Below, one piece after another: positions 10,386 through 51,837 of a stretch of DNA of 64,000 bases. The stretch lies in NCBI GenBank assembly GCA_964532415.1, contig CAZHHN010000002.1, positions 7,852 through 71,851 on the forward strand, written 5' to 3'. Source of the DNA: an uncultured Gammaproteobacteria bacterium (lineage in GTDB: Bacteria; Patescibacteriota; Patescibacteriia; SG8-24; DYFX01). Made by a program: the position numbers and the translations under genes. The first letter of the stretch is position 1; every line of letters starts with the position of its first letter. A model generated the notes under the pieces. It did not search any database and had not been told where the DNA came from. It saw only the letters and a program-made list of their open reading frames with translations.

Positions 10386-10763
10386 ATGGACGATGACACC
10401 GAATGGCGATATCCCGGCGAGATTGATGATGCCTATCGGGAAAGTATCCGCGAGCGCTTCACTTGGACAACCGTCCTGACGGCGCTGAAGATCCCGTACG
10501 AACTCAGCGGCGAACGGAGAAACCGCATCAAGCTGCTGTGCATCTTCCATGCGGAGAAGACACCTTCTCTGCTCTTCTATCCGGATGGCGGCTTCATCTG
10601 TTTCGGCTGCCAGCAGCAGGGCGACATCGCGCAATTCGTCTTCCTCTGGTTCGACAAGACCTTTCCTGCGCTGAACTGCACCGGCGTTCCGAAAAAGGCG
10701 CTCGATGATTTCTTCGCTTCGTGCGCGAAAAAGAATCCGCAACAACTTGATCTTCCGATCTGA
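10386..10763 (+). CDS. Standalone primase-type CHC2 zinc-finger protein (no TOPRIM/catalytic domain)
   Basis: CIFHAEKTPSLLFYPDGGFICFGCQQQGDIAQFV matches DnaG zf-CHC2 (CxxH-x17-CxxC). SD AAAGGAAA before ATG 10386. In-frame alternative starts at 10254 (ATG) and 10206 (GTG). Confidence 0.6.
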   Translation: MDDDTEWRYPGEIDDAYRESIRERFTWTTVLTALKIPYELSGERRNRIKLLCIFHAEKTPSLLFYPDGGFICFGCQQQGDIAQFVFLWFDKTFPALNCTGVPKKALDDFFASCAKKNPQQLDLPI

Positions 10764-36549: not shown

Positions 36550-38100
36550 TCAGCGCGCACGCTGCATCGGCAGGTCCGAAGCGATCCAGGCGGGCCGGTC
36601 GATCTTGGTGAAGTCGATCGGATCGGTCTCGGTCTTTTCGAAGCCGGGCTTGACGGCCGTCAGATAATACGATCCCGCGCCGACGTGAAAGCTGTAGCGG
36701 CCGCGGGCGTCCGTGAGACGCGTCTCAAGCACTTTGTGATACGGCAGCGAGAGCACGCGCACGACCGCGCCGGAAATCGGGCGGCGGGTATCGATGTCGT
36801 AGACCGTTCCCTGCGAGACTGGCATCGGCGGCTCCGCCAGACGCCTGAAAATTTGGTACAGGAAGACCTGCAGCAGGAAGAGAAGGAAGACCGGCAACCG
36901 CGGAGACACGATCAATGCCACCAAACTCAGACAGGGGCCGGACAGGGCCAGAAAACGGCGCAGCGCTTTTTTATTGCGGACGGACAGCAGCGCGCGCGCT
37001 TCTTCGGGCGGCGCCTCGTCCGGATCGAGCGGCACGTTGAGCGTGAGCGTCCTGCCGTTTTCGGCCGGGGCAATGAGCGTGCCGTGGTAGATCTCCTCGA
37101 ACGCCCCGTCGTCGGATACGTCAGAAAGCGAGAGCGCCGGAAAGACGAAACCGGGCTTGCGCGCCTCGAGGCGATACGTTCCGGCTTTCGGCGTGAAAGC
37201 GAAACGACCGTCCTTGTCGGTCACCTTGGTGGCGACGATGCGTCCGTTCGTGATGTCGATCAGCCGGACGGTCGCCAGATCGATCGGAACTTTGGTCGCC
37301 GCGTTGTAGACCGTGCCCCAACCCTGGCGCCGTCGGCGGCTGAGGAAAAGAAGGGGCTGGACCGCCAGCAGCAGGAGAAACTGACCTGCGCTGGCGAGCG
37401 GCAAAGCGCCTGCCAATGCCGCAACGAGTCCGGCCGCGGTGCCGAGCACCGAAAGCGGAGCGACGACGGTCGCGTTGACGGATTGGACTTCCGGCCGGTC
37501 GGCGACGCGGCGGACCAGCTCGGCGTTCTCCTGGACGGTACCGAAGGCCGCGGCGACCTGCCCGGGCGTCGGCACATAGACCTGCAGCTGGCTGAAGATG
37601 GACACGCCGGCGGCGCCGTTCTCGGAGCCCTCGAAGCCGGTGTCGGTCAGGAGATGCGGACCGGCCGTCAGCTCCCCCGTCGGCGTTTCGAGCGCGAAGG
37701 TCACTTCGTAGCCCGGACAGGCCTTATCGCAGTACCTGCCGTCCTGACGGCGCGAATGATACAGATACGGGACGCCGCCGGGCAGCACGTTGAACGGCAC
37801 GCCCTGCAGATAGATGTTGCCGGACGACAATCCGTTCGCGGTGATGCCGGCATCCGAAATGACCGCGGCGTTTTCCGTGCCGAGTTCGATGCCGAGCGGC
37901 GGCGAGGCCGGGTACTCGGCGTGCTGTTCGAAATAGAGCTCGATGGCGTTCCGGATGGTTCGGACGTCGGCCACCCGTTTGGCGTCGCGCGCCTTCATGC
38001 GCACCGCGTTGTAGGAAACCAGCCCTGCCACGGTCAGCAGGGCCATGATGGTGGTGGTTACCAGCAGTTCGACGAGGGTGAATCCTGTTCGTTTCGTCAT
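36550..38100 (-). CDS. Prepilin-type N-terminal cleavage/methylation domain protein with long C-terminal extension (internal TM helices, two CarboxypepD_reg-like beta-sandwich repeats)
   Basis: MTKRTGFTLVELLVTTTIMALLTVAGLV class-III signal motif. Repeats with TGRIVATKVTDKDGRFAF and RLTDARGRYSFHV. Confidence 0.65.
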   Translation of the reverse strand: MTKRTGFTLVELLVTTTIMALLTVAGLVSYNAVRMKARDAKRVADVRTIRNAIELYFEQHAEYPASPPLGIELGTENAAVISDAGITANGLSSGNIYLQGVPFNVLPGGVPYLYHSRRQDGRYCDKACPGYEVTFALETPTGELTAGPHLLTDTGFEGSENGAAGVSIFSQLQVYVPTPGQVAAAFGTVQENAELVRRVADRPEVQSVNATVVAPLSVLGTAAGLVAALAGALPLASAGQFLLLLAVQPLLFLSRRRRQGWGTVYNAATKVPIDLATVRLIDITNGRIVATKVTDKDGRFAFTPKAGTYRLEARKPGFVFPALSLSDVSDDGAFEEIYHGTLIAPAENGRTLTLNVPLDPDEAPPEEARALLSVRNKKALRRFLALSGPCLSLVALIVSPRLPVFLLFLLQVFLYQIFRRLAEPPMPVSQGTVYDIDTRRPISGAVVRVLSLPYHKVLETRLTDARGRYSFHVGAGSYYLTAVKPGFEKTETDPIDFTKIDRPAWIASDLPMQRAR

Positions 38101-38738
38101 GAAGGCCTGGGGGTCTTGCGGGGATAAGCGCACAGGCGCGCGACCGGACAGTTCCAGCAGCGCGGACGGCCGGGCAGGCAGGTCGAGCGGCCGAATTGCA
38201 CGAAAACGCGGTTGACGTGCAGCCACAAATCTTTCGGCACGAGACGCAGGAGCGCCTGCTCGGTTTCTTCGGGCGTCCCGGCCCGGGTCCAACCGAGGCG
38301 CTCGGCGATGCGGTGCACGTGCACATCGACCGCAATCGCCGGGATTTTGAAAGCATAGCACAGGACGCAATTGGCCGTTTTGCGGCCCACGCCGGGCAGC
38401 GCCATCAGTTCTTCGCGGGTGCGCGGAACCCGGCCGCCGTGCCGCGCGAGCAGCGAGAGCGCAATCCCCTTCACGGAACGGGCCTTGGCGCGATACAAGC
38501 CGATCTCTTTGATGGAAGCGGCGATCGTACCTGGATCGGCGGCGGCCAGCGCAGACAGCGTGGGAAAGGCTGCGCGCAATTTGGGATACACCTTCAGCAC
38601 CTGCTCGTCGCGGGTACGCGCCGAAAGCACCGTGGCGAGCAGCACGTCTTCCGGGCGGTCCAGTTCGACGGCGCCCTTGCTGGGGTAGGCGCGCCGGAGG
38701 ATACCGATCACTTTACGGATCGCTGAGGCCGTTGGCAT
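38097..38738 (-). CDS. nth: Endonuclease III
   Basis: HhH-GPD LPGVGRKTANCVL, FeS cluster CxxxxxxCxxCxxxxxC at C-terminus. Confidence 0.85.
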   Translation of the reverse strand: MPTASAIRKVIGILRRAYPSKGAVELDRPEDVLLATVLSARTRDEQVLKVYPKLRAAFPTLSALAAADPGTIAASIKEIGLYRAKARSVKGIALSLLARHGGRVPRTREELMALPGVGRKTANCVLCYAFKIPAIAVDVHVHRIAERLGWTRAGTPEETEQALLRLVPKDLWLHVNRVFVQFGRSTCLPGRPRCWNCPVARLCAYPRKTPRPS

Positions 38739-39595: not shown

Positions 39596-40063
39596 TCATG
39601 ACTCGAACAGATAGCCATAGGCATCGGGATCCGCTCCGGCTTCACCTGCCCATTCGCCGATGGAAAGGCGCGCGATGAGTCTTCTGTGCTGGAGCTGGAA
39701 CACGAGCGCGGCGGCGGGAGCGAATAGCTGGTTGGCGGCCATATCGAGCAGTTCCCAGATATGGACATGGCCGCTCATCTTGTCTGAACGATCTTCCATC
39801 GCCTCCAAGAGCAATTGCGCGTTCACCCACCCGTTCGAAAGCTGCGGCGGCTCCCTGTCGAATACGATCCTTGGACCGGTCATGACCTCCGGATATTCGG
39901 CGGAAAGGCTGACCGCCGTACGCGCGGCACCAGGATCACCATTGAGGCCGTAGTGGATAAAGAATTCCGAGCGCGAACGCAGACGCAGGCTGCCCCGGGA
40001 CGTGACCCTCTCGAACGGGATCGGGATCCGTGATGCGCCGCCCACCTTCATCGTAATGTGCAT
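39596..40063 (-). CDS. Hypothetical protein
   Basis: Strong AGGAGG SD 5 nt before ATG 40063. No recognised motif. Confidence 0.5.
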   Translation of the reverse strand: MHITMKVGGASRIPIPFERVTSRGSLRLRSRSEFFIHYGLNGDPGAARTAVSLSAEYPEVMTGPRIVFDREPPQLSNGWVNAQLLLEAMEDRSDKMSGHVHIWELLDMAANQLFAPAAALVFQLQHRRLIARLSIGEWAGEAGADPDAYGYLFES

Positions 40064-40237
40064 ATCTCCCTCCTGTCGATCTCTTACCCGATTTCGTCCC
40101 ACCCGTCAAGCTTTCGATCCATCGAGCGTCCGTCGGTCAAAAAAGAAGCCCCTTGAGAGAAGACTTCAGAAGCATCCCCCCTCCCCGTAACACAATTCCA
40201 TTGCACCTGTCAAACCTTCATGCCACAATGCCCGCCT

Positions 40238-41263
40238 ATGCGCACCTCGGATTTCGACTACGAACTGCCGGGCGAGCGAATCGCCCAAAAGCCCGCCTCG
40301 CCGCGCGAATCGGCCCGCCTGCTCGTCCTCGATCGGGCACAAAACGCGATCATGCACGCCAAGGTAAAGCGGCTTCCGGAATTCCTGCGGAAGGGCGATG
40401 TGCTGGTCATCAACGTCAGCAAAGTATTTAAGGCTCGCCTGATGGGCCGGTTGGACGATCCGGGCAAAAGCGCGATCGAACTGTTCCTGATCCGGCCCGA
40501 AGGCACGTACTGGCGCGCCTTGGCGAAACCGGGACGCAAGCTCCGGCCGGGTTCGCGTATCGCCGTCGCCGAAGGTTTCGCCGCGACCGTCGCGCGGAAA
40601 GACGCTGACGGTTCGGTGCTGGTCGATTTCGGCAGGCAGCCGGGGAGCGTCGTCCGCCTGGCCGATCGGTGCGGACAGGTGCCGCTCCCCCCGTACATCA
40701 CGCGCGCTCCGCGCGCCACGGAATACCAGACTGTCTACGCCCGCGAGGTCGGTTCGGTGGCCGCGCCGACGGCCGGCTTCCACCTCACCAAAAAGCTCAT
40801 CGCCGGTTTGAAAAAGAAAGGCGTCATCTTTCTCGAAGTGACGCTACACGTCGGGCTCGGCACGTTCCTACCGATCCGGACGGAGGAACTTGGCGCGCAC
40901 GCCATGCACGCCGAATGGGTCGAGATTCCGGCCGCGACGGCGCGCGGCATCGCGCGGGCCAAGGCGGAAGGCCGACGCGTGATCGCGGTCGGCACCACCA
41001 GTGTACGCGCGCTCGAAGGCGCGGCCGCCGCGCTGAACGGAAAGCTGCGCGCCTGGCGCGGCGACGTGAGGCTGTTCATTTCCCCCGGCTTCCGTTTCCG
41101 CATCGCGGATGCGTTGCTGACGAATTTCCATCTGCCGAAATCGACCCTGCTCGTGCTGGTTTCGGCCCTGGCCGGGCGCGAACGCATCCTGCGGGCCTAT
41201 GCCGAAGCAATCGGGAAGAAGTACCGTTTTTACAGCTACGGCGACGCGATGTTGATCATCTAA
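40238..41263 (+). CDS. queA: S-adenosylmethionine:tRNA ribosyltransferase-isomerase
   Basis: MRTSDFDYELPGERIAQKP QueA N-terminus, PLPPYI, GTTSVRALE. 341 aa. Confidence 0.85.
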   Translation: MRTSDFDYELPGERIAQKPASPRESARLLVLDRAQNAIMHAKVKRLPEFLRKGDVLVINVSKVFKARLMGRLDDPGKSAIELFLIRPEGTYWRALAKPGRKLRPGSRIAVAEGFAATVARKDADGSVLVDFGRQPGSVVRLADRCGQVPLPPYITRAPRATEYQTVYAREVGSVAAPTAGFHLTKKLIAGLKKKGVIFLEVTLHVGLGTFLPIRTEELGAHAMHAEWVEIPAATARGIARAKAEGRRVIAVGTTSVRALEGAAAALNGKLRAWRGDVRLFISPGFRFRIADALLTNFHLPKSTLLVLVSALAGRERILRAYAEAIGKKYRFYSYGDAMLII

Positions 41264-41344
41264 AGCTGACCGATCCGGCGATATTGACGACCGGAATCAG
41301 GCATGATCAGATGTGAGCAGGACATTCACATTGCGAGGCGCCGC

Positions 41345-41839
41345 ATGAAACCGCTCTCAACCGACGACATGGCCCGCTTGGCCGATCGCATGTTCCCAGA
41401 TGATGCGCAGCTCATGGCATTCCACGCCGTCCACGAAATCCGCAACGGAAAATTGCATCGTATCTGCCTGAAAGGGAGATCCGACATGGCCGACGATCCG
41501 GAAGCGGAAATTGTCGCATTCATCGGCCGGGGCCATCTGAGCGAAAATTGCATGTCTTTCCGCGTCTTCACACCGAGTCCTCAACGAGAACGGGTCGCGG
41601 AGGAATTGACCGCATGGGCGCGCACATTGCCAGCAGCCGACCCCGATCCGAATCACAGAATTTCAACCACGCTCCATGTTGCGGCCTTGCTGGCAGTGAT
41701 CGAACTGCCGGACGGTCAGCTCGGATGTTTCCTGTACCGACATCCCGAGGTAGACGAGCATGAGGTTGGTCCACTTGTCCGATTGGCGCTGGACCACTAC
41801 GAGCGGCGAGACGCAGAAAAGGCCGCCAACGCATGCTGA
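41345..41839 (+). CDS. Orphan acidic protein, paralog of next gene (YRHP..EH motif)
   Basis: GCGAGG SD. Shares DDPEAEIVAFIG and FLYRHPEVDEHEV with downstream paralog. Confidence 0.5.
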   Translation: MKPLSTDDMARLADRMFPDDAQLMAFHAVHEIRNGKLHRICLKGRSDMADDPEAEIVAFIGRGHLSENCMSFRVFTPSPQRERVAEELTAWARTLPAADPDPNHRISTTLHVAALLAVIELPDGQLGCFLYRHPEVDEHEVGPLVRLALDHYERRDAEKAANAC

Positions 41840-41861
41840 GCGGGAGAAAGGATGGCTTGAC

Positions 41862-42428
41862 ATGAAAACGCCGGACGGCATCGCGATCTATCGATCCGCC
41901 AACACATACTTCCCTCCGAGCCCAGAGTTGGCAGACTTCAACCTGGACGCCGAGATCGGACTTGGCCTCTTGACTCGGATGGTCGGACCGGAGATCCCGA
42001 ACGATGCTGAAGCAGTCATCGCCGTGGGTCAAGTTGATTTCCTTCTTTCGCAGGAAGACGAACCAGAAGGAAATGAGGGCGCCAGGGTGGAAGAATACTA
42101 TTCCATCTTGATGGAAGACGGACCAGATCCAGCGACGAGGGATGCCGACTGGAGAAGCCTGAAGCGGGCGATTCTGGACCTCTCGAGCCCTACTCCCGAA
42201 GAACCAGAGCACGTTTGCATCGATCTCGAACCCGCGCATACGCTGGCCGCGGTCGTCGTCTGGCGGTCTCCGACGGAGGGCGCGATTATTGCCACCTATC
42301 GGCATCCGCACATACCGGAGCACCAGGCATGCATGACCCTGAAGCAGCTGCTTGTGCACATCGAGACGGAAGACGCGCACGCCGCTGCCTTGAGAACAGC
42401 CACTTCGCCCGAGCCTCTCTTGGATTGA
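41862..42428 (+). CDS. Orphan acidic protein, paralog of previous gene
   Basis: GGGAGAAAGGA SD. NDAEAVIAVGQV and ATYRHPHIPEHQA align with upstream paralog. Confidence 0.5.
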   Translation: MKTPDGIAIYRSANTYFPPSPELADFNLDAEIGLGLLTRMVGPEIPNDAEAVIAVGQVDFLLSQEDEPEGNEGARVEEYYSILMEDGPDPATRDADWRSLKRAILDLSSPTPEEPEHVCIDLEPAHTLAAVVVWRSPTEGAIIATYRHPHIPEHQACMTLKQLLVHIETEDAHAAALRTATSPEPLLD

Positions 42429-42450
42429 ACGCCTCCTCAAAGGGCGTTTT

Positions 42451-43608
42451 TTATTCCACGATCCATCCCTTCTTGAATTCCAAGAAACGATCCTCGAGAA
42501 TGGCGGCGCGCATCCGGCGCATCAGTTCGAGCAGGAAATGCAGGTTATGGATCGTCGCCAAGCGGAAGTAGGCGATCTCGCCGGTCAGGAAGAGATGGCG
42601 CAGATAGGCGCGCGAATGGCGCGCGCAGGTGGAACAGGCGCATTCCTCGTCGATCGGACCGGCATCGCGTTCAAAGCGCTTGTTGCCGATTTCGATCCGG
42701 TATTTCCGGCCGCGGCCGGCCAACCGGTTGAAGAGCGCGCCGTTCCGGGCCACGCGGCTCGGACTGACGCAGTCGAACATGTCGACGCCGAGCTCCACCA
42801 CATTGAAGAGATCCTCCGGCGAAAGGCCGACGCCCATCGTGTAACGGGCCTGGTGCGGAGGCATCAGGTCCGAGATCCATCCGAGGATCTCGCGCGTCCG
42901 GGCCATGTCGTAGCCGACCGATTCTCCGCCGACGGCAAACCCATCGAACGGCCGCGCGGCGACGAACTCCGCGGACGCGCGCCGCAGAGCGCGGTGCACT
43001 CCGCCCTGGACGATGCCGAACAGCTGCTGGCGGTGCGGCGGAGCGGCAGCCCGATCTTTCATCGCTTCCAGGCAGCGGTCGGCCCAGCGATGGGTGCGCT
43101 CCATGGCGGCGACCGCCTCCTCTTCGGAAGCCGAATCGCGCGTGCACTGGTCGAACGCCATGATGATGTCGGCGCCGAGCTTCTGCTGGACGCGGATCGC
43201 CTCTTCCGGCGTGAAACGGTGGCGGGAGCCGTCGAGGTGCGAGGTGAACGTGACGCCGTCCTCGTCGATCTTCACCAGCGAGCCGTGCGATCCGCTTTTG
43301 ACGTCGAGCGAAAAAACCTGGTAGCCGCCCGAATCCGTCAAAACGGCGCGGTTCCAATGCTGGAAGCGGTGCGCGCCGCCGAGGTCGCGGACCAGGTCCT
43401 CGCCCGGGCGCAGATGCAGATGATAGGTGTTATTGAGGAGAATCTGCGCGCCCAAAGCCTCCATGTCGGCGGCGTCCAGCGATTTGACCGTCGCCTGCGT
43501 GCCGACCGGCATGAAGACCGGCGTCTCGACATCGCCGTGATCGGTGGAAATGACGCCGGCACGGGCGCCGGAACGCGCGTCCCGATGGACGAGAGTGAAA
43601 TTTTTCAT
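42451..43608 (-). CDS. tgt: Queuine/tRNA-guanine transglycosylase
   Basis: VFMPVGTQATVK, LTDSGGYQ, Zn site CxCxxC..H (ECACSTCARHSRAYLRHL). 385 aa. Confidence 0.85.
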   Translation of the reverse strand: MKNFTLVHRDARSGARAGVISTDHGDVETPVFMPVGTQATVKSLDAADMEALGAQILLNNTYHLHLRPGEDLVRDLGGAHRFQHWNRAVLTDSGGYQVFSLDVKSGSHGSLVKIDEDGVTFTSHLDGSRHRFTPEEAIRVQQKLGADIIMAFDQCTRDSASEEEAVAAMERTHRWADRCLEAMKDRAAAPPHRQQLFGIVQGGVHRALRRASAEFVAARPFDGFAVGGESVGYDMARTREILGWISDLMPPHQARYTMGVGLSPEDLFNVVELGVDMFDCVSPSRVARNGALFNRLAGRGRKYRIEIGNKRFERDAGPIDEECACSTCARHSRAYLRHLFLTGEIAYFRLATIHNLHFLLELMRRMRAAILEDRFLEFKKGWIVE

Positions 43609-43646
43609 AGCGGTTCGCTTCATTCTGGAATGAAAAACGCCCGCGG

Positions 43647-44276
43647 TCAAACGGGCGATGAGTCCTGCCGGAGCGTCTCGATCGTGCTCCGAAACTGCTC
43701 TTCCAGTTCCGTGTCCGTGCGCGGACGAGTCTGAAGGCTCGGAACCGCCTGCGCGCACCATTGCAGATGATACCTTTGGGCCGACTTCGTGGTACAGGTG
43801 TGCCAGATGGCCGCTTCGGCTTCCGGTGCGGAAGGGTCGGCCCAACGCAGGAGATCGGCCAGCCGCATGCCGTTGTTCATACGAACGATTTGGCGGGCGG
43901 TCGCGACCGTCCACTGGTGCCGCCACGCATGGATTTCTGCGCGGTCACCGATCCAGAAGCTTCCTTTTTCCGACAAGATATGCGCGCCTTCCGGCACATT
44001 CGCCGGCGGCGCGCCGAGGCGCACGCATTCCATGGCGAACTTCTTTCCGACCCAGCCGGCCACCCATCGATGATCGCAAGCGGATACATGGACGTCGAGT
44101 GGCGAGATGTCGCGGGCGCCGATAGGGTTTTTATACAGCGCGGCAAGTTCTTGGTCGCTGACGATCCTTTGCCGATGACCGCACACGTGATTGCAGCCGT
44201 CGTCGGACCGGACGATGAACGGCACGATGGCGTATGACTTCCGATCGGGACGATCCGCAAGCGCGAGAAGGTGCAT
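43647..44276 (-). CDS. Hypothetical Cys/His-rich protein upstream of tgt
   Basis: GGAGGA SD 4 nt before ATG 44276. Motifs DDGCNHVCGH, SACDHRW, HAWRHQW. No family recognised. Confidence 0.5.
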   Translation of the reverse strand: MHLLALADRPDRKSYAIVPFIVRSDDGCNHVCGHRQRIVSDQELAALYKNPIGARDISPLDVHVSACDHRWVAGWVGKKFAMECVRLGAPPANVPEGAHILSEKGSFWIGDRAEIHAWRHQWTVATARQIVRMNNGMRLADLLRWADPSAPEAEAAIWHTCTTKSAQRYHLQWCAQAVPSLQTRPRTDTELEEQFRSTIETLRQDSSPV

Positions 44277-44325
44277 GAGTTCCTCCGCCGCGAGCCTAGC
44301 ATCATTCGTCCGGATTGCCAATACC

Positions 44326-44354
44326 GGAAACCCGCGCAGTGGGCGCGGGTTTCA
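44326..44354. terminator. 10-bp GC-rich hairpin after surface-protein gene
   Basis: AAACCCGCGC-AGTGG-GCGCGGGTTT. Confidence 0.5.
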
Positions 44355-44361
44355 GACATCC

Positions 44362-45231
44362 TCAGGTGTGGGGCGGAACGGGCGGAGGCACATCGGGCGG
44401 CGATGTCCGGCTCTGTCTCCAGGAGCGGCGCACCCTCCAAAGGGCGACCCCGCCGATCAGCAGGATCCACCAATAGCAGAGGAACCAGCCCCAGAACCAT
44501 GGGCAGCCGGCGGACGAGACAAGCGGAGTCGTGGTTGCCGGAAGGGCGGGGACGGAAGGCGTCGCAGAAGCATCCGAAACCTCTTCGGCATCGGTCGCAC
44601 TGCCGGTTCCGGTTGGTGGGGCGACGGATGCGGGCGGGGTGACGGACCCCGGCGGCTTGGTGCCGGGAGTATCGCGTCCGCAGGAACGGCTGGTCGGCGG
44701 GGACGGCGTGACGACGTCCGGACAATTGAAGCTCATGACGCATTCGCGGGTCTGGGTTCCGGCGCCCGTACACGGACCCCAGTCGGTACAGTTCCAGATA
44801 TCCTCCGTGCAGCGCTGGGGTGGAGGCGTCGCCGACGGCCCAAGGTCGTCGTAGGCGATCGTGCAAACGGCGGTTTGGCCGTCTTCAAGGGTGCCGGAAC
44901 ACGCGCCGCTCATCGCAACGGTATAGTGCGAATCCTGCGCGGCAGCCACCGCATACGGGCCGTTGTCCAAGATGACGTACGCTCCCAGCGCGCCGGCACC
45001 CGTCACCGCGATCTTTCGAGTGCCGGTCGACACGAGAGCGGTGAAATCCGCAGGGCCCTTGCTGCCGTGATCGTCATTGATGACGTTTGTGATGATCGAA
45101 ACGGTCGGCGGCGGCTTGTTACCGCCTCCCCCGGTCAGCCCGCCATCGTCCGCGGCGAAGGCGGGGCGAAAGGACAGGAAGCCGGACAGCAGGAAGACGG
45201 CCGAAATCAGGAAAATGAAACGGCGGCGCAT
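44362..45231 (-). CDS. Secreted Pro/Thr/Cys-rich cell-surface protein with C-terminal TM anchor
   Basis: Signal peptide MRRRFIFLISAVFLLSGFLSFRPAFA. PT-rich linkers, 12 Cys. C-terminal WFWGWFLCYWWILLIGGVALW TM. Confidence 0.6.
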   Translation of the reverse strand: MRRRFIFLISAVFLLSGFLSFRPAFAADDGGLTGGGGNKPPPTVSIITNVINDDHGSKGPADFTALVSTGTRKIAVTGAGALGAYVILDNGPYAVAAAQDSHYTVAMSGACSGTLEDGQTAVCTIAYDDLGPSATPPPQRCTEDIWNCTDWGPCTGAGTQTRECVMSFNCPDVVTPSPPTSRSCGRDTPGTKPPGSVTPPASVAPPTGTGSATDAEEVSDASATPSVPALPATTTPLVSSAGCPWFWGWFLCYWWILLIGGVALWRVRRSWRQSRTSPPDVPPPVPPHT

Positions 45232-45295
45232 GACGGCAAAAAGGAATTAACGTACGGACAGAGTACGGAAATTCAAACAGGGCGTCAAGCTTAGC

Positions 45296-45625
45296 CTATC
45301 GGTTTTTCCGTGCCCGGAGCCGATCGGCAGCCTCGTTCCAACCTTCCTTCAACTCGTCCGACAGGTCGGCGAGTTCCCGCTTGGTCAGCATCTTCATGTT
45401 TTTATATTCGGCCAGGACCGCATCGACGATTTTCGCATACGATTTCTTGGAAACGCCGCCCAGCTTCCTGGCGTGGGCCAGCACGTGCGCCTTGGCATCC
45501 TCGGCCGCCGTCTTGAGCAGCCGGGCCTTTTTGTTCTTTTTCAGGAGATGCGCAAAAGCCACGACGGCGGTGACGAGCGTCGCAGCGGCGATCCCCTTAC
45601 CGAGCGTCTTCTTAAGGCCAGCCAT
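45296..45625 (-). CDS. Small YtxH-like membrane/coiled-coil protein
   Basis: N-terminal hydrophobic GIAAATLVTAVVAFAHLL then charged helix. Table start is TTG, so ATG 45625 used. Confidence 0.4.
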   Translation of the reverse strand: MAGLKKTLGKGIAAATLVTAVVAFAHLLKKNKKARLLKTAAEDAKAHVLAHARKLGGVSKKSYAKIVDAVLAEYKNMKMLTKRELADLSDELKEGWNEAADRLRARKNR

Positions 45626-45682
45626 AGGATTGAGATCAGGTAAATTAGCTCTGTCCAAGAGACGTCGATTCGCCCCGCTTCC

Positions 45683-45994
45683 TTACAGCTTCGCCATCGC
45701 CGCGGCGAACTCGGCATCGGTCGCCTGTTCCCCTTCGAGCCCGGCGAACGGGTGTGCCTGCCAGTACGGCAGGCCCTTCATGTTCCGGCGGGTCAGCCGT
45801 TCGGCCAAAGCGCGATCGCCTCCGGTCGCCGCTTCGGCGAAAAATTCGACGCCGCCGCGGAAGACGTCCTCGCCGCTCTTCACTTTCCCGTCTGCCGAAT
45901 CGAATTTGCAGACCGGTCCTTCCGGAAGTTCCAGGCCGATGTCGCCGACATGATTGCCTTCAAAGGGCATGCCGCAAGTGATGCAGGATTTCAT
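45683..45994 (-). CDS. Zinc-ribbon domain protein
   Basis: CITCGMP..PVCKFD CxxC-x19-CxxD pattern. Confidence 0.45.
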   Translation of the reverse strand: MKSCITCGMPFEGNHVGDIGLELPEGPVCKFDSADGKVKSGEDVFRGGVEFFAEAATGGDRALAERLTRRNMKGLPYWQAHPFAGLEGEQATDAEFAAAMAKL

Positions 45995-46059
45995 ATGCGC
46001 GCAGTATACAACAACACTCCCCGGAGAGGGAGTGAGTGCGCGACAGGCATGCCATCGGT

Positions 46060-46737
46060 TCAGAGGAGCGATAGCACCCCGCTGCCGGTGGTGATCTCCG
46101 AGCCGTTCTGGTATTCGGGTCGTGAGACGACCGCGAGGATCGTCTCCGCGACGGCGTCCGGGTCTTCGAAGTAACCCTGCGCAGGCTCCGTGCCGATCGG
46201 CCCGGGGGTCATGGTGTTCACCCGCAGGCGCGAACCGAATTCGAGCGCCAGCACCCGCGCCGCCGCGGTGAGGCCGGCCATGGAGGCCGCGTAGGCCGCG
46301 GTGCGACGCGACGGCCGACGCGCAAGGTTGCTCGAAATGAACACGATGGAACCCCCGTCGCGCAGCCTCGGCAGGAGGGTCTGTACGGTTAACAAAGGTC
46401 CGCGAAGATTGGTTGCGATGTTCTCATCGAACGCCTCCGGGGACATGTGTTCGAAGGCCTGCACGAGGCACGCGCTCTCGCAGGGCACAACGATATCGAG
46501 TGTCGGCGCGAATCGGCCAACCTTGTTCGACAGATGCTCAAGATCGATCAGGTCGGTGACATCCAAGACGATCCCATAGGCACGGTCGCCGAGTCCGGCG
46601 ACCGCCTGACCGACTTCATGCTCATCGGAGCCCGTGATAATCACTTTGGCCCCATGTTCAAGAAAGAGCTTGGCGGTCGCGAGGCCAATGCCTCCGGTTC
46701 CGCCGGTAATGAGCGCGATTTTCCCTGCAAGTTTCAT
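46060..46737 (-). CDS. Short-chain dehydrogenase/reductase-fold protein with degenerate catalytic motifs
   Basis: ITGGTGGIG NAD(P) site, but YxxxK is YAASM and NNAG region reads VPCESAC. Confidence 0.65.
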   Translation of the reverse strand: MKLAGKIALITGGTGGIGLATAKLFLEHGAKVIITGSDEHEVGQAVAGLGDRAYGIVLDVTDLIDLEHLSNKVGRFAPTLDIVVPCESACLVQAFEHMSPEAFDENIATNLRGPLLTVQTLLPRLRDGGSIVFISSNLARRPSRRTAAYAASMAGLTAAARVLALEFGSRLRVNTMTPGPIGTEPAQGYFEDPDAVAETILAVVSRPEYQNGSEITTGSGVLSLL

Positions 46738-46826
46738 GAGCTCCGGACCCTTTCCCGCGGCGATCGTGCCGCGATGACGGCTGCACTCTAACGGTGCGCG
46801 GAATGCGCGTCAAGCGGCGTGAACAA

Positions 46827-47483
46827 TCATGAAGGCGACACGGCCCTATCCCGAAAGCTGCGGCCCACGGCCAATCCGATGGACGTGCCGATCAACGCGC
46901 CGGCCAGGAAATCCGAGAACCAGTGGATGCTGACCGAAACGGCCAGCCCGACATACAGGGCATAGAGCAGCGCCGGAATCTTCACCGAAGATTTTTCCCG
47001 ATACAAAACGGCCAGCGCGACCATCGTGGCGAAAGCGACGGTCGTATGCGACGAAGGCCAGCCCCAAAAGATCCCGGCACGCAGAAAGCCGAATTGGAAA
47101 TGCCCGGTGACGTCGTCCGTCAGCGCCGTGCCGAAGGTCGGGTGCGCGCGGCCGGTCAAAGCTTTGCAGGAAGAAGAAATCAACCAGCCGAGAAAAGCCG
47201 ACTGCGCAAGCGCTCCGGCCGCACGACGAAGCCACTCGTCTTTGCGAAGCCTGGCGGCCGCCAGCGCGACGAACGGCATGACGATCGGCAGCAACCCGCC
47301 CAGCAGGATGCCCGGCATCACCCATGCCCGCGGAACTCCCTGTCCGGCCGCATACCATCGCCAATCGAAGCCGGAGACGACAGCGGCATACGTCAGCGCG
47401 ATCGCCAAAAGATGGACCGGGATGAGAGGCCAGGAGAAACAGGCGAGAAGGTTGCGCCACAAATTGTAGAAGAAGACCCGCAT
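46827..47483 (-). CDS. PAP2-family phosphatase (second copy)
   Basis: GWPSSHTT and SIHWFSD motifs, 6 TM. Confidence 0.65.
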   Translation of the reverse strand: MRVFFYNLWRNLLACFSWPLIPVHLLAIALTYAAVVSGFDWRWYAAGQGVPRAWVMPGILLGGLLPIVMPFVALAAARLRKDEWLRRAAGALAQSAFLGWLISSSCKALTGRAHPTFGTALTDDVTGHFQFGFLRAGIFWGWPSSHTTVAFATMVALAVLYREKSSVKIPALLYALYVGLAVSVSIHWFSDFLAGALIGTSIGLAVGRSFRDRAVSPS

Positions 47484-47488
47484 GAAAA

Positions 47489-47899
47489 TCACCAATCGCC
47501 TTGCGGCATCCGACGGTTCCTTTTCCTTTCACCAATACGACGTTTCTTTTCCAGTCGCCTGCGCTTCTGCGACCGACTGACTTTGGTCGGCATGCGTTTC
47601 TTCTTCGGCCTGAGCGCGACTTCGACCAACTCCCGCAGCCGGCGTACGGCTGCTTCCTTGTTATGCAGCTGCGAGCGTTCGCTCTCGGCCGTCAGTACGA
47701 TTTCGTCGCGCTTGTTCAGATGCTTCCCGGCGAACGCGCGGATCAATGCCTTTTGCCCGTTCGTAAACGCCGACGAGCCGCCGACGTGCCAGCGCAGCTG
47801 CGCCTTGCTCGAGACCTTGTTGACGTTCTGCCCGCCGGGTCCGGAAGAACGGGCAAACTCAAAATGCAATTCGGATTCGGGAATGGAGGAAGCGATCAT
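47489..47899 (-). CDS. arfB: Peptidyl-tRNA hydrolase ArfB (alternative ribosome rescue factor B)
   Basis: SSGPGGQNVNKVSSK GGQ motif and basic C-terminal tail KKKRMPTKVSRSQKRRRLEKKRR. Confidence 0.75.
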   Translation of the reverse strand: MIASSIPESELHFEFARSSGPGGQNVNKVSSKAQLRWHVGGSSAFTNGQKALIRAFAGKHLNKRDEIVLTAESERSQLHNKEAAVRRLRELVEVALRPKKKRMPTKVSRSQKRRRLEKKRRIGERKRNRRMPQGDW

Positions 47900-48593: not shown

Positions 48594-50174
48594 TCAAATC
48601 AACGCTCGGCCCGTCATATCGGCCGGCTGGGGAATGCCCAGGATTTTCAAGATCGTCGGCGTGACGTCGGAGAGCATGCCGATCGGCGGACTCAGACTCA
48701 AATCGCCCGCCACCATTTCCTGCGCCTCCCCCGCCATGCCCTCGAACGGCCGGCCGATGATCAGGAGCGGCACCGGATAGGTGGAGTGTTCCTTGTCGAT
48801 CGCGCCGGTCTGGAGGTTCACGACTTCCTCGGCGTTGCCGTGATCGGCGGTGACGATGACCGTGCCCTCTTTGGCCAACGCGGCATCGACGATCCGACCG
48901 ACGCACTGGTCGACAATTTCGGCCGCCTTGACGGTCGCCTCCAGATTGCCGGTGTGCCCGACCATGTCGCCGTTGGCGAAATTGACGGCGATCAGGTCAT
49001 AGGTGCCCTTGCCCAGCTCCTGCACGACGCGATCGGCAATATGCAGCGCCGACATCTCCGGCTGCTGATCGTAGGACGAAACCCTCGGCGACGGGATGAT
49101 GACCCGGTCCTCGCCCGGGAACGGATCTTCCCTCATACCGTTCAGGAAGAAAGTGACGTGCGCGTATTTTTCCGTTTCGGCGATGTGCAGCTGCTTCATG
49201 CCGGCGTCGGAAACGACTTTGGCCAGGCAGGTCGAAACCGGTTCGGGCGGGAAGGCGACCGAAACCGGCAGGCCCTTTTCGTATTCGGTCATGGTCACGA
49301 AGAGCAGCTCGCGCATGTAGGTGCGCGAAAACCTGTCGAAGGACGGCAGCGCGAAGGCTTTGGTGAGTTCGCGGGCGCGGTCGGGGCGGAAGTTGAAGAA
49401 GATGACGGCGTCGCCGTCCTCGATCTTGGCGACCGGGCGGCCGTGCTCGGTGATGACGGTCGGGGCGAACTCCTCGTCGAAGACCCGGGCGTCATACGAT
49501 GCGCGGATGGCCGCGAGCGGATCGTCCGACGACGCGCCGGAAACGCCATCGGCCATAGCGCGGTAGGCCGCCTCGACGCGGTCCCAGCGGTTGTCGCGGT
49601 CCATCCCGTAAAAACGTCCGGAGAGCGTGGCGATCTTTCCGACGCCGTTCTTTTTCATCCGCCCGAGGACGGTGCCGACGAAATCGATGCCGGCGTTGAA
49701 GGTCGTGTCGCGGCCGTCGAGAATGGCGTGCAAAAAGAGCTGCGTGACGCCTTCGCGGGCGGCCAAGTCGAGCAGGGCCAGCAGATGGTCGAGCGAAGCG
49801 TGCACGTTGCCGATCGAGGTCAGCCCGAGCAGATGGAGCTTCGTCCCGCGTTTCCGGACGTGCCGAATGGCGTCCATGAACGCCCCGTTCCGGAAAAATT
49901 CTCCGTTCTGGATGGAACGGTTGATGCGCGGCAGGCTCTGATAATAGACTTTGCCGGCGCCGATCGTCAGGTGGCCGACTTCGGAATTGCCCATTTCGCC
50001 CCACATCAAGCCGACCTCTTCGCCGGAAGCGAGGATCGTCATGGCGGGATAGCTGGCGGCGAACTCGCGCAGCCGCGGCGTATTCGCCAGCGCCAGCGCG
50101 TTGCCCTGATCGGGCGGCGCTACGCCCCAGCCGTCGAGAATCAGGAGCACGATCGGTTTCGTCGGTGCGGGCAT
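48594..50174 (-). CDS. gpmI: 2,3-bisphosphoglycerate-independent phosphoglycerate mutase (copy 1)
   Basis: LLILDGWG, catalytic GNSEVGHLTIGAG, TADHGN. 526 aa. Confidence 0.9.
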   Translation of the reverse strand: MPAPTKPIVLLILDGWGVAPPDQGNALALANTPRLREFAASYPAMTILASGEEVGLMWGEMGNSEVGHLTIGAGKVYYQSLPRINRSIQNGEFFRNGAFMDAIRHVRKRGTKLHLLGLTSIGNVHASLDHLLALLDLAAREGVTQLFLHAILDGRDTTFNAGIDFVGTVLGRMKKNGVGKIATLSGRFYGMDRDNRWDRVEAAYRAMADGVSGASSDDPLAAIRASYDARVFDEEFAPTVITEHGRPVAKIEDGDAVIFFNFRPDRARELTKAFALPSFDRFSRTYMRELLFVTMTEYEKGLPVSVAFPPEPVSTCLAKVVSDAGMKQLHIAETEKYAHVTFFLNGMREDPFPGEDRVIIPSPRVSSYDQQPEMSALHIADRVVQELGKGTYDLIAVNFANGDMVGHTGNLEATVKAAEIVDQCVGRIVDAALAKEGTVIVTADHGNAEEVVNLQTGAIDKEHSTYPVPLLIIGRPFEGMAGEAQEMVAGDLSLSPPIGMLSDVTPTILKILGIPQPADMTGRALI

Positions 50175-50259: not shown

Positions 50260-51837
50260 TCAATCGCTGAGCAGCGAGCGGCCGGTCATTTCGACCGGCG
50301 GGCGGATGCCCATGAGATCGAGAATCGTCGGCGCCACGTCGGCCAGCACACCGCGCGGCAGCTCGCGCAGGCCTTCGAGATTTCTGCCGGCCGCCAGGAA
50401 CGGCACCGGATTGACGGAGTGCTCGGTGTCGACCGCCCCGGTCGCGACATCGATCATCTCCTCGACGTTACCGTGGTCGGCGGTGATGACAAGCGTGCCA
50501 TCCAGCGCTTGGACTTCCTTCCAGATCCGGCCGATCGCCCCATCGATCGCCTCGACCGCCCTGACGGCCGCGTCGAGATTGCCGGTGTGCGCGACCATGT
50601 CGGCATTGGCGAAATTCATGGCGACGAAATGATAGAGGCCGCGCCGCAGCTTTTTGATGACCGCGGTGGCCAGATCGGGCGTGCGCATTTCGGGGGCCAT
50701 GTCGAACCGCGGAATGCGCAGCGATTCGATCTTGAGATGCTCTTCGCCGAAATGGCGGTCGTCGTAGCCGCCGTTGAAAAAGAAGGTGATGTGCGAATAC
50801 TTTTCCGACTCGGCGGCGTAGAGCTGCTTCAATCCCTTGAGCACGGCCGGCAGCGCATTCCTGATGTCGCGGGCGGGAAAGGCCGTCAGGATGTGCGGCA
50901 GGTCGGGTCCGAAATCGGTCATCGCCACGAAGCGGATGTTGCGCGGCACGCGGCGCCGAGTGAAGGCGCCCGGCACCGACGCTTCGAAATCCGGGATCAG
51001 GAACGTTTTGGAAAACTGACGGGCGCGGTCGGAACGCAGGTTGAAGAACAAGATGGCGTCGTTGTCGGCGACCGGGCCGACCGGCACGTGGTTCTGATCG
51101 ACAATGACGGTCGGCACGATGAATTCGTCCGTTTCTCCGCGGTTGTAGGCCTGGAGCAGCGCCGCCTCGGCCGACGGCGCGGAGAGACCCTCGCCTGTCA
51201 CGATGGCGTGATAGGCCAAGTCGAGCCGCGGCCAGTTTTTGTTGCGGTCCATCGGATAGAAGCGCCCCATCAGGCTGGCGATGCGCTCGCCCGGCTTGAG
51301 GCGCGCTTCGATCTCGTGGACCTGCGCGGTGGCGGCAAAGCGCGGGCCGTCGCGGCCGTCGGTGAAGAGATGCAGCCGGACGTCCCTGACGTCCTGCCGG
51401 CGGCAGAGATCGAGCAGCCCGTAGAGATGGTCCATGCTGGCGTGCGCCGAGCGTCCGGTCGACACCAATCCCATCAAGTGCGCTTTGGTGCCGTATTTTT
51501 TGACGTGGCGCAGCGCTTCGAGAAAAGCGGTGTTCTTGAAGAACGTCCCGTCTTCGATGGCGCGGCTGATCAGCACCGATTCCTGCTCGACGACCCGGCC
51601 GGCACCGAGATTCATGTGGCCGGCTTCCGAATTGCCGGGCTGATGCTTCGGCAACCCCACGTGCTGGCCGTGCGCGAACAGCTCGGCGTGCGGATAGCGT
51701 TCCCAGAGCTCCAGAAGCGCCGGCGTCCGGGCCATCAACACCGCGTTGCCCTGCAGGCCGGCCGGCGCGGAACCGAAACCGTCGCAGATGACCAGCACCA
51801 CCGGGCGCACCTTTCCTTTAGGCGTGCGGGGAGGCAT
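50260..51837 (-). CDS. gpmI: 2,3-bisphosphoglycerate-independent phosphoglycerate mutase (divergent copy 2)
   Basis: [28 protein letters not shown]. 525 aa. Overlaps eno end by 20 nt. Confidence 0.85.

What the first reader, a model, noticed from the sequence alone, without database searches (positions are those of the whole stretch)
41345..42428. Tandem orphan acidic paralogs between queA and tgt sharing a YRHP(x3-4)EH motif
Two adjacent small proteins (164 and 188 aa), each with its own SD, align with each other (DDPEAEIVAFIG / NDAEAVIAVGQV; FLYRHPEVDEHEV / ATYRHPHIPEHQA). Neither has a domain I can place. They sit exactly between the two queuosine-pathway genes queA (+) and tgt (-). They could be queuosine-salvage accessory factors or immunity-type proteins that duplicated in situ.
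Basis: seen in the sequence. Interest (0 to 1): 0.5.

Follow-up and report, generated by a model that had tools for sequence, protein, structure and literature searches.

The report
Clade-restricted paralog cassette array between queA and tgt
The two small acidic genes are real, distantly related members of an undescribed protein family that occurs only in one narrow group of ultra-small (CPR, Paceibacter-like) bacteria, always as 1-5 tandem gene cassettes in the same slot between queA and tgt, has a confidently predicted fold with no solved relative, and shows no independent evidence of a role in queuosine metabolism.

Summary
ORF1 (41345-41839, 164 aa) and ORF2 (41862-42428, 188 aa) lie between queA (+) and a convergent tgt (-). 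They are homologous over their full length, but only about 26% identical, so the duplication is ancient.

In all 12 further distinct loci where a flank is visible, the family sits in the same slot, as 1 to at least 4 divergent cassettes. Many cassettes have their own promoter-like element and terminator. All loci come from one syntenic clade (tgt 62-84% identical). None of 79 more distant tgt loci has a member.

Array genes are under purifying but relaxed selection (dN/dS 0.19-0.62, flanks 0.04-0.23).

I infer non-enzymatic, alternative-specificity binding proteins, immunity- or inhibitor-like. The queA/tgt position is probably historical. Function remains untested.

The parts
40220..41263 (+). 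queA (S-adenosylmethionine:tRNA ribosyltransferase-isomerase). It is the upstream flank of the slot.
   Evidence: PF02547, E 6.7e-125. It is 65-74% identical over its full length to queA in loci L006, L011, L012 and L015. No terminator-like hairpin follows it.
41284..41312 (+). Promoter-like element: TTGACG (41284-41289), a 17-nt spacer, then TG-n-TCAGAT (-10 at 41307-41312).
   Evidence: Read from the sequence. The same TTGAC[G/A]-17-TGnT..A.T arrangement recurs before many cassettes in L001, L006, L007, L009, L011, L012, L096, L097 and L099. The consensus scan did not report it because the -10 deviates from TATAAT. Its function is inferred, not shown.
41335..41338 (+). Shine-Dalgarno GAGG of ORF1, 6 nt before the ATG.
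   Evidence: Sequence. The family alignment supports the 41345 start rather than the 41303 start of the 178-aa product (P0035) that the protein collection holds from NCBI and Logan.
41345..41839 (+). ORF1, 164 aa, pI 5.5. Family member with predicted topology alpha-alpha-beta-beta-beta-alpha-beta-beta-alpha.
   Evidence: HMM built without the window proteins: 116 bits. AlphaFold2 model: pLDDT 94.6, pTM 0.88. Conserved residues L23, E31, G35, L37, G61, G124, R132, H133 and P134 are present. It lacks the family's usual terminal Asn.
41848..41852 (+). Shine-Dalgarno AAGGA of ORF2. The spacer from the ORF1 stop is only 22 nt, with no terminator, so the two genes are probably bicistronic.
   Evidence: Sequence.
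41862..42428 (+). ORF2, 188 aa, pI 4.4. Family member with an acidic insertion after strand 3.
   Evidence: HMM built without the window proteins: 84 bits. Alignments. N14, L23, N27, E31, G35, L37, G61, R132, H133, P134 and A141 (ORF1 numbering) are conserved. It ends in ...PLLD and has no terminal Asn.
42427..42455 (.). GC-rich hairpin plus T-run between the convergent ORF2 and tgt. It is a terminator-like element closing the array.
   Evidence: Equivalent hairpins close the arrays in L006, L007, L009, L010, L011, L013, L096 and L097, and one follows the last visible gene of L014.
42451..43647 (-). tgt (queuine tRNA-ribosyltransferase), convergent. It is the downstream flank of the slot. The exact start codon is uncertain.
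   Evidence: PF01702, E 4.2e-139. It is 62-84% identical to tgt next to every other array.

Best explanation
SHOWN. ORF1 and ORF2 are two ancient paralogs of a small, previously undescribed protein family. The family is confined to one clade of CPR bacteria (Minisyncoccota, Paceibacter-like). In every locus examined it forms a modular array of 1 to at least 4 divergent cassettes in the chromosomal slot queA(+) -> array <- tgt(-).

The proteins are about 165 aa, acidic and show no signal peptide by inspection. They have a confidently predicted alpha/beta fold with no relative among solved structures. They are under purifying but relaxed selection. Cassette number and type differ between otherwise syntenic genomes.

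INFERRED. They are non-enzymatic binding modules. A small conserved polar set (N14, N27, E31, R132-H133-P134) would serve a shared contact. The rest of the protein, which is highly variable, would give each paralog its own specificity. The array would then be a repertoire of alternative-specificity inhibitor or immunity-like (or adaptor) proteins, each expressed from its own promoter.

In the window, the two genes would be transcribed as a bicistron from a TTGACG-17-TGnTCAGAT element downstream of queA and terminated at the hairpin shared with tgt. The position between queA and tgt would reflect one ancestral insertion or inversion into the common bacterial queA-tgt pair, not a queuosine function.
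For: Family and rarity. The exhaustive profile search finds 32 representative clusters among 1.84 billion proteins, all 157-186 aa except one 328-aa fusion. There are no Pfam or NCBIfam hits for 31 members, and no PDB sequence hits for the family profile.

Real proteins. AlphaFold2 gives pLDDT 94.6 and pTM 0.88. Ortholog dN/dS is 0.19-0.62, against 0.04-0.23 for the flanking tgt, queA and fpg.

Slot. Arrays sit in the queA/tgt slot in L001, L006, L007, L009, L010, L011, L012, L013, L015, L018, L096 and L097/L098. Both flanks are visible in six of these, queA only in two and tgt only in four.

Alternative versions rather than an obligate complex. Copy number runs from 1 (L015) and a fused double (L013), through 2 (window, L096, L097) and 3 (L011), to 4 or more (L006, L007, L009). 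Paralog types are patchy between genomes.

Modularity. Many cassettes end AAC-TGA, followed by a GC hairpin, a T-run, then TTGAC[G/A]-17-TGnT..A.T and an SD.

Few conserved polar residues. H133 is substituted in 7 of 50 members, which argues against an enzyme.

Precedent. Tandem arrays of divergent small paralogs are unusual in bacteria and are the hallmark of polyimmunity loci (PMC3113570, read).
Against: No toxin, nuclease, deaminase or secretion gene is linked to the array in any locus.

Known immunity families spread widely and occur in many genomic contexts. This family is fixed in one slot of one clade.

Orthologous paralog types persist at 64-88% identity between genomes. That would also fit stable housekeeping-like roles.

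A conserved terminal Asn in 39 of 49 members is not a known feature of immunity proteins and is unexplained.

I could not map the conserved residues on the model or test any interaction.
Confidence: 0.35

Rival explanations
1. Queuosine or tRNA-modification accessory factors. Examples would be preQ1/queuine capture or delivery proteins, or modulators of TGT or QueA, co-expressed with queA.
For: The array lies immediately downstream of queA, on the same strand, and next to tgt in every locus where flanks are visible. No terminator-like hairpin follows queA in the window, so read-through from queA is possible. There is a small conserved polar set, N27, E31, R132 and H133.
Against: All loci belong to one syntenic clade, so the adjacency counts as one evolutionary event. 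None of 79 more distant tgt loci carries a member, and queA-tgt adjacency is ancestral. The arrays have their own promoter-like elements, and often one promoter plus one terminator per cassette. Copy number varies from 1 to at least 4, and divergence to 20-30% identity is atypical of a metabolic accessory. There is no NAU codon bias. There is no similarity to any family in Pfam or NCBIfam, so none to a known queuosine protein.
Confidence: 0.12
2. Adaptor or chaperone-like proteins, or subunits of a paralogous hetero-oligomer. The flexible C-terminal tail ending in Asn would dock onto a common hub such as a protease, ATPase or secretion component.
For: The proteins are small and acidic, with the order alpha-alpha-beta-beta-beta-alpha-beta-beta-alpha. 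From my own knowledge, that order recalls class I type III secretion chaperones. A Gly/Pro/acidic tail ends in an Asn in 39 of 49 members, whatever DNA follows the stop codon. Paralog types persist between genomes.
Confidence: 0.15
3. Effectors transferred from the episymbiotic CPR cell to its host or to competitors. The variable body would be the effector and the C-terminal tail an export signal.
For: The family is fast-evolving, lineage-specific and multi-copy, in a bacterial group reported to live on other cells (abstracts of PMC10936435 and PMC9763046, seen). A pilin-like protein lies nearby at 36550-38370.
Against: There is no signal peptide and no linked secretion genes. The proteins are acidic and compactly folded, with no recognisable toxin or enzymatic motif. 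The idea is purely speculative.
Confidence: 0.08
4. Substrates of a C-terminal Asn-directed modifying enzyme, such as an MccB/ThiF-type adenylyltransferase. They would be carrier or precursor proteins.
For: A terminal Asn occurs in 39 of 49 members. The C-terminal Asn is the required handle in microcin C-type precursors (PMC4010828, seen).
Against: The window proteins lack the Asn. No ThiF/MccB-like gene was seen among the genes flanking any array. The proteins are folded 165-aa domains, not short peptides.
Confidence: 0.03
5. Spurious ORFs in GC-rich DNA.
For: The window is 63% G+C and full of long overlapping ORFs, including a 290-aa ORF on the opposite strand at 41568-42440. GC3 of ORF1 and ORF2 (0.64 and 0.67) is below the window's gene average of 0.81.
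Against: Homologs are conserved at protein level with dN/dS below 1. The HMM scores are 84-116 bits against at most 9.6 for shuffles. The model has pLDDT 94.6. Both genes have an SD, and a terminator follows.
Confidence: 0.01

Closest known systems
SUKH-superfamily polyimmunity arrays (Smi1/Knr4, Syd, US22 homologs; Zhang et al. 2011, PMC3113570)
   Same: Both form tandem arrays of up to about six highly divergent small cytoplasmic paralogs, with variable copy number, occasional tandem-domain fusions and an alpha+beta fold. The N-terminal helix motif here, [FL]P.D..L..FN...E..NG, superficially recalls the SUKH 'LP..y..fl...nGg' motif (that comparison is from my memory).
Orphan or acquired immunity-gene islands of polymorphic toxin systems (Zhang et al. 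2012, PMC3482391)
   Same: Both are repertoires of alternative small binding proteins, each individually expressed, with gain and loss between close relatives.
   Different: Those islands are usually mobile and mix several families, with toxin remnants or recombinases nearby. Here a single family sits between housekeeping genes, with no mobility genes and no phage, plasmid or IMG/VR match.
The bacterial queA-tgt(-yajC-secDF) gene pair
   Same: queA and tgt are neighbours here, as in 26 of the 79 unrelated tgt loci fetched.
   Different: In those loci the two genes are co-directional and adjacent. In this clade tgt is inverted (convergent) and the array occupies the gap.
Class I type III secretion chaperones (CesT/SycE-like)
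   Same: Small, acidic, with a similar order of secondary-structure elements (my own knowledge for the chaperones; for this family).

Membership tests
SUKH superfamily immunity proteins | Sequence-profile match to the SUKH/SMI1_KNR4 family models | tested here: not met
   hmmscan of ORF1 and ORF2 (E up to 1) and of 31 family members (E up to 10) against Pfam-A gives no SUKH-type hit.
SUKH superfamily immunity proteins | Core fold of four helices and six strands: a beta-hairpin plus a four-stranded meander (PMC3113570) | tested here: not met
SUKH superfamily immunity proteins | Tandem arrays of divergent paralogs | tested here: met
   Arrays of 1 to at least 4 cassettes that are 20-30% identical to one another.
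Polymorphic-toxin immunity proteins (generic) | A cognate toxin gene or toxin cassette in the neighbourhood | tested here: not met
   The flanks are queA, tgt, fpg, nth and other housekeeping genes. No toxin domain appears in the window neighbours or in 13 loci. A HicA toxin gene lies 3.3 kb from the array in L096 only.
Polymorphic-toxin immunity proteins (generic) | Direct binding and neutralisation of a toxin | not testable with these tools
   This needs co-expression or binding experiments, or multimer modelling against candidate toxins from the complete genome.
Queuosine pathway or salvage proteins | Homology to a known Q protein (QueC/D/E/F/G/H, QueT/QrtT/YhhQ, Qng1/DUF2419, QueK, QueL) | tested here: not met
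   No Pfam or NCBIfam family is matched.
Queuosine pathway or salvage proteins | Co-occurrence with tgt and queA across independent lineages | tested here: not met
   The family occurs only where tgt is at least 62% identical to the window's. None of the 79 tgt loci at 55% identity or less has a member. Only 2 of 185,579 species-representative genomes were recovered, in a scan that used patterns from the most conserved paralog type only.
Queuosine pathway or salvage proteins | Co-transcription with queA | tested here: inconclusive
   Same strand, an 81-nt gap and no terminator after queA. However, a conserved promoter-like element lies in the gap. No expression data are available.
Microcin C-type precursors or C-terminal Asn carrier proteins | C-terminal Asn plus an adjacent MccB/ThiF-like adenylyltransferase | tested here: not met
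   ORF1 ends ...NAC and ORF2 ends ...LLD. 39 of 49 relatives do end in Asn, but no ThiF-like gene flanks any array.
Class I type III secretion chaperones | CesT/SycE-type fold | tested here: not met

The most novel reading that the evidence does not exclude
The array encodes a new protein fold that is functionally tied to the flanking tRNA-guanine transglycosylase system of genome-reduced CPR bacteria. It might be a set of alternative TGT/QueA modulators, or 7-deazaguanine-base capture proteins tuned to different host-derived precursors. The conserved terminal Asn of most members would be a docking or modification handle. That would be a new, lineage-specific layer of control over queuosine salvage in obligate symbionts.
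Probability: 0.08. Interest if true: 0.75.

Novelty: new variant of a known kind. Interest (0 to 1): 0.4.

Why it matters
CPR bacteria carry a very large share of unannotated genes, and very few of their lineage-specific families have any structural or genomic characterisation.

This family offers several handles:
- a well-defined alignment of 51 sequences;
- a high-confidence model with no solved relative;
- a precise, reproducible genomic address;
- a modular cassette architecture, with a promoter and terminator per gene, that explains how copy number changes between genomes.

If the proteins are immunity- or inhibitor-like, they point to an unrecognised conflict system among ultra-small episymbionts. 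If they do act with TGT or QueA, they would reveal a new component of queuosine salvage in organisms that must scavenge precursors.

As it stands, the finding is a solid description of a new family with unknown function. It is not a demonstrated new mechanism.

Tried and rejected
- A His/Glu metal site in 'RHP(x3-4)EH'. Rejected because the EH is not conserved outside the window pair.
- Q-dependent translation, tested as enrichment of NAU codons for Asn, Asp, His and Tyr. The NAU fraction is 0.40-0.41 in ORF1 and ORF2 against 0.37 in the window background, and 0.20 in other family genes against 0.23 in their flanks. Rejected.
- The terminal Asn codon as part of a DNA-level site (attC-like AAC...GTT). 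Rejected because the Asn persists when the next gene follows directly after TAG with no hairpin. The hairpins look like ordinary GC-stem plus T-run terminators, and no integrase is present.
- Mobile-element, phage or plasmid origin. There is no tblastn match in 50,697 phage or 72,556 plasmid records, none in IMG/VR, and no BFVD structural match.
- A riboswitch or other known RNA in the region. The Rfam gathering scan of the window finds only three tRNAs, all elsewhere.
- Searches that failed or were limited. The search for related loci alignments A1 and A4 were too divergent to use. The JGI metagenome scan with the family pattern found nothing. The AFDB50 Foldseek library was unavailable. The third word-indexed homolog search scored only 8,000 candidates and added little.

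Full report
**1. What is in the window**

ORF1 (41345-41839, 164 aa) and ORF2 (41862-42428, 188 aa) are on the + strand, exactly as described.
- ORF1 has GAGG 6 nt upstream of its ATG.
- ORF2 starts 22 nt after the ORF1 stop and is preceded by AAGGA.
- queA (40220-41263, +; PF02547, E 6.7e-125) lies upstream.
- A convergent tgt (about 42451-43647, -; PF01702, E 4.2e-139) lies downstream.
- A terminator-like GC hairpin with a T-run (42427-42449) sits between ORF2 and tgt. None follows queA or ORF1.
- In the 81-nt gap after queA I read TTGACG (41284-41289), a 17-nt spacer, then TG-A-TCAGAT (-10 at 41307-41312).

**2. Are the two proteins related?**

BLASTP aligns only the C-terminal 51 residues (33% identity, E 4e-5). 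A non-circular test settles the question. An HMM built from 49 relatives, with both window proteins excluded, scores ORF1 at 116 bits and ORF2 at 84 bits. The best of 400 composition-matched shuffles reaches 9.6 bits.

The two proteins are 26% identical to each other. Each has an equally close or closer relative in another genome: ORF1 is 30% identical to P0015, and ORF2 is 32% identical to a gene in L011. They are ancient paralogs, not a recent local duplication. Their pI values are 5.5 and 4.4.

**3. Known families**

Neither protein matches anything in Pfam, NCBIfam, PADLOC, PHROGs or PDB sequences. Scanning 31 family members individually against Pfam and NCBIfam at E up to 10 gives only scattered single hits. 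A family profile against PDB sequences gives nothing better than E 0.14.

**4. The family**

Word-indexed searches found only the window proteins themselves and one weak hit, P0002. An exhaustive profile search of 1.84 billion cluster representatives then found 32 proteins at E up to 1e-3. All are 157-186 aa, except one 328-aa protein with two copies of the domain.

In a 51-sequence alignment the well-conserved columns, in ORF1 numbering, are:
- N14, L23, N27, E31, G35, L37, G61 and G124;
- R132 (39/50), H133 (43/50; N or R in the remaining 7) and P134 (44/50);
- A141.

Thirty-nine of 49 complete members end in Asn after a variable Gly/Pro/acidic tail. The window's two proteins do not.

**5. 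Structure**

With only three sequences, AlphaFold2 gave pLDDT 78. With the 31-sequence alignment it gave pLDDT 94.6 and pTM 0.88. The topology is H6-16, H21-33, E38-43, E55-65, E68-75, H81-94, E112-120, E126-132, H138-163.

**6. Genomic context elsewhere**

Every locus I could retrieve with a visible flank shows the same slot:

| Locus | Arrangement seen |
|---|---|
| L001 | queA, then at least 3 cassettes |
| L006 and L007 | queA, 4 cassettes, tgt |
| L009 | at least 4 cassettes, tgt |
| L010 | at least 3 cassettes, tgt |
| L011 | queA, 3 cassettes, tgt |
| L012 | queA, at least 2 cassettes |
| L013 | queA, one fused two-domain protein, tgt |
| L015 | queA, 1 cassette, tgt |
| L018 | 2 cassettes, tgt |
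| L096 | queA, 2 cassettes, tgt |
| L097/L098 | queA, 2 cassettes, tgt |

L014 and L099 are short contigs that show tandem cassettes only.

The flanking queA, tgt, fpg and nth are 62-84% identical to the window's. Synteny with L011 extends over about 20 kb.

A pattern scan of the genome collection, using the most conserved paralog type, recovered two of the 185,579 species-representative genomes. One is labelled Candidatus Paceibacter sp. (Minisyncoccota, CPR). The other is labelled 'uncultured Gammaproteobacteria'. The second label is doubtful, because L011 and L012 share close synteny and 69-91% protein identity in the genes compared.

**7. Is the queA/tgt position functional evidence?**

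I fetched 80 tgt loci from JGI metagenomes. Only the one close relative (L018, tgt 84% identical) has family members. The 79 others, at 55% identity or less, have none. In 26 of those 79 loci, queA and tgt are adjacent and co-directional. That is the common bacterial arrangement.

So the adjacency of queA and tgt is ancestral. In this clade tgt is inverted and the array fills the gap. Because all arrays come from one syntenic clade, the association counts as one evolutionary event. There is no NAU/NAC codon peculiarity that would suggest Q-dependent translation.

**8. Cassette architecture**

In L001, L009, L011, L012, L096, L097 and L099, and in part of L006 and L007, each gene has the same sequence of elements:
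- a final AAC-TGA;
- a GC hairpin with a T-run;
- (C)GTTGAC[G/A] immediately after;
- a 17-nt spacer;
- an extended -10-like TGnT..A.T;
- an SD.

These spacers are 73-94 nt long. Other junctions are operonic, at 1-22 nt, as between ORF1 and ORF2.

The repeated terminator-promoter junctions offer a plausible substrate for gain and loss of cassettes by recombination. That step is inference. The terminal Asn persists where no hairpin follows, for example in AAC-TAG-G-ATG, so it is a protein-level feature.

**9. Selection**

| Comparison | Gene | dN/dS |
|---|---|---|
| L006 vs L007 | four array orthologs | 0.19, 0.27, 0.62, 0.27 |
| L006 vs L007 | tgt | 0.16 |
| L001, L009, L011, L012 pairs | array orthologs | 0.35-0.49 |
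| Same pairs | queA, fpg, tgt | 0.04-0.23 |

These genes are therefore real and constrained, but they evolve about two to four times faster at the protein level than their neighbours. In the window, ORF1 and ORF2 have GC3 of 0.64 and 0.67, against 0.81 for 20 background genes. Family genes in the other loci match their flanks, 0.89 against 0.88.

**10. Interpretation**

The firm result has four parts:
- a new, clade-restricted family;
- a confident fold without a solved relative;
- a modular, copy-number-variable cassette array;
- a fixed slot.

For mechanism, I favour non-enzymatic binding proteins of alternative specificity, immunity- or inhibitor-like, at confidence about 0.35. The reasons are these:
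- Few polar residues are conserved, and the His is replaceable.
- Paralogs diverge strongly.
- Copy number runs from 1 to at least 4, with a single-copy genome and a fusion. That excludes an obligate hetero-complex.
- Many cassettes are expressed individually.
- This organisation is otherwise typical of polyimmunity loci (PMC3113570).

Against this stand the absence of any linked toxin, the restriction to one slot in one clade, the persistence of ortholog types and the unexplained terminal Asn. The rivals are a queuosine accessory role (0.12), an adaptor or chaperone with a docking tail (0.15), transferred effectors (0.08), Asn-modified carriers (0.03) and spurious ORFs (0.01). The remaining probability is 'something else'.

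**11. Novelty and score**

The family is undescribed: it matches no curated model, and literature searches returned nothing relevant. Its organisation resembles a known kind, the tandem arrays of divergent immunity-type paralogs. It fails the tested membership criteria of every named family.

I rate it a new variant of a known kind, with interest 0.4. It is well defined and structurally novel-looking, but it has no demonstrated function and its link to queuosine is weak.

Noticed in passing
Family-wide; for example L001:1440-1445, L006:4091-4096, L011:10508-10513. Absent from window ORF1 and ORF2.: 39 of 49 complete family members end in Asn (…GGN, …GNN, …KN, …PN, …EN) after a variable Gly/Pro/acidic tail. 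The Asn is present whether a terminator hairpin or the next gene follows the stop codon. No known system explains a conserved terminal Asn on a folded 165-aa protein.
   Followed up: partly
L001:845-932 and 1446-1530; L009:200-293, 849-937 and 1448-1533; L011:9916-10000 and 10514-10598; L099:603-682; window 41284-41312: There is a repeated inter-cassette junction of about 85 nt. It consists of a GC hairpin, a T-run, (C)GTTGAC[G/A], a 17-nt spacer, TGnT..A.T and an SD. In effect each cassette has its own terminator and extended -10 promoter. This may be a usable promoter consensus for this CPR clade.
   Followed up: partly
L013:573-1559 (P0024, 328 aa): Two family domains are fused into one protein that occupies the whole queA-tgt slot. 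Both halves keep the HHP motif (LHHHP and LLHHP).
   Followed up: partly
window 41345-42428 compared with the rest of the window: ORF1 and ORF2 have GC3 of 0.64 and 0.67, against 0.81 for 20 background genes. Family genes in the other loci match their flanks. This may reflect exchange with a lower-GC relative or weak codon selection.
   Followed up: no
window 39596-40102 (-): An orphan ORF of about 155-168 aa with no Pfam hit lies between fpg and queA. The gap is empty in L011, L012 and L015. It holds a NUDIX gene in L006 and three small unannotated genes in L096. This is a second small variable islet right next to the array.
   Followed up: partly
window 43647-47495: About 3.9 kb upstream of tgt has no counterpart in the otherwise syntenic L011. 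It contains ORFs without a Pfam hit (223 aa, a 288-aa Pro/Gly-rich protein, 119 aa and 102 aa), plus an SDR and a PAP2 phosphatase.
   Followed up: partly
window 48594-50174 and 50260-51837 (-): Two tandem, divergent copies of cofactor-independent phosphoglycerate mutase (iPGM) sit next to enolase. They are conserved as a pair in L011 and L097.
   Followed up: no
L011 (CAYNUS010000001.1): This MAG is labelled 'uncultured Gammaproteobacteria', yet it is closely syntenic with a Candidatus Paceibacter MAG (L012) and with the window, at 69-91% protein identity in the genes compared. The taxonomic label is probably wrong.
   Followed up: partly
window 36550-38370 (-): A large protein has a prepilin-type N-terminal methylation motif followed by CarboxypepD_reg/SdrD_B-like beta-sandwich repeats. 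It is conserved in L002, L096 and L097. It may be a pilus-associated adhesin of the episymbiont.
   Followed up: no
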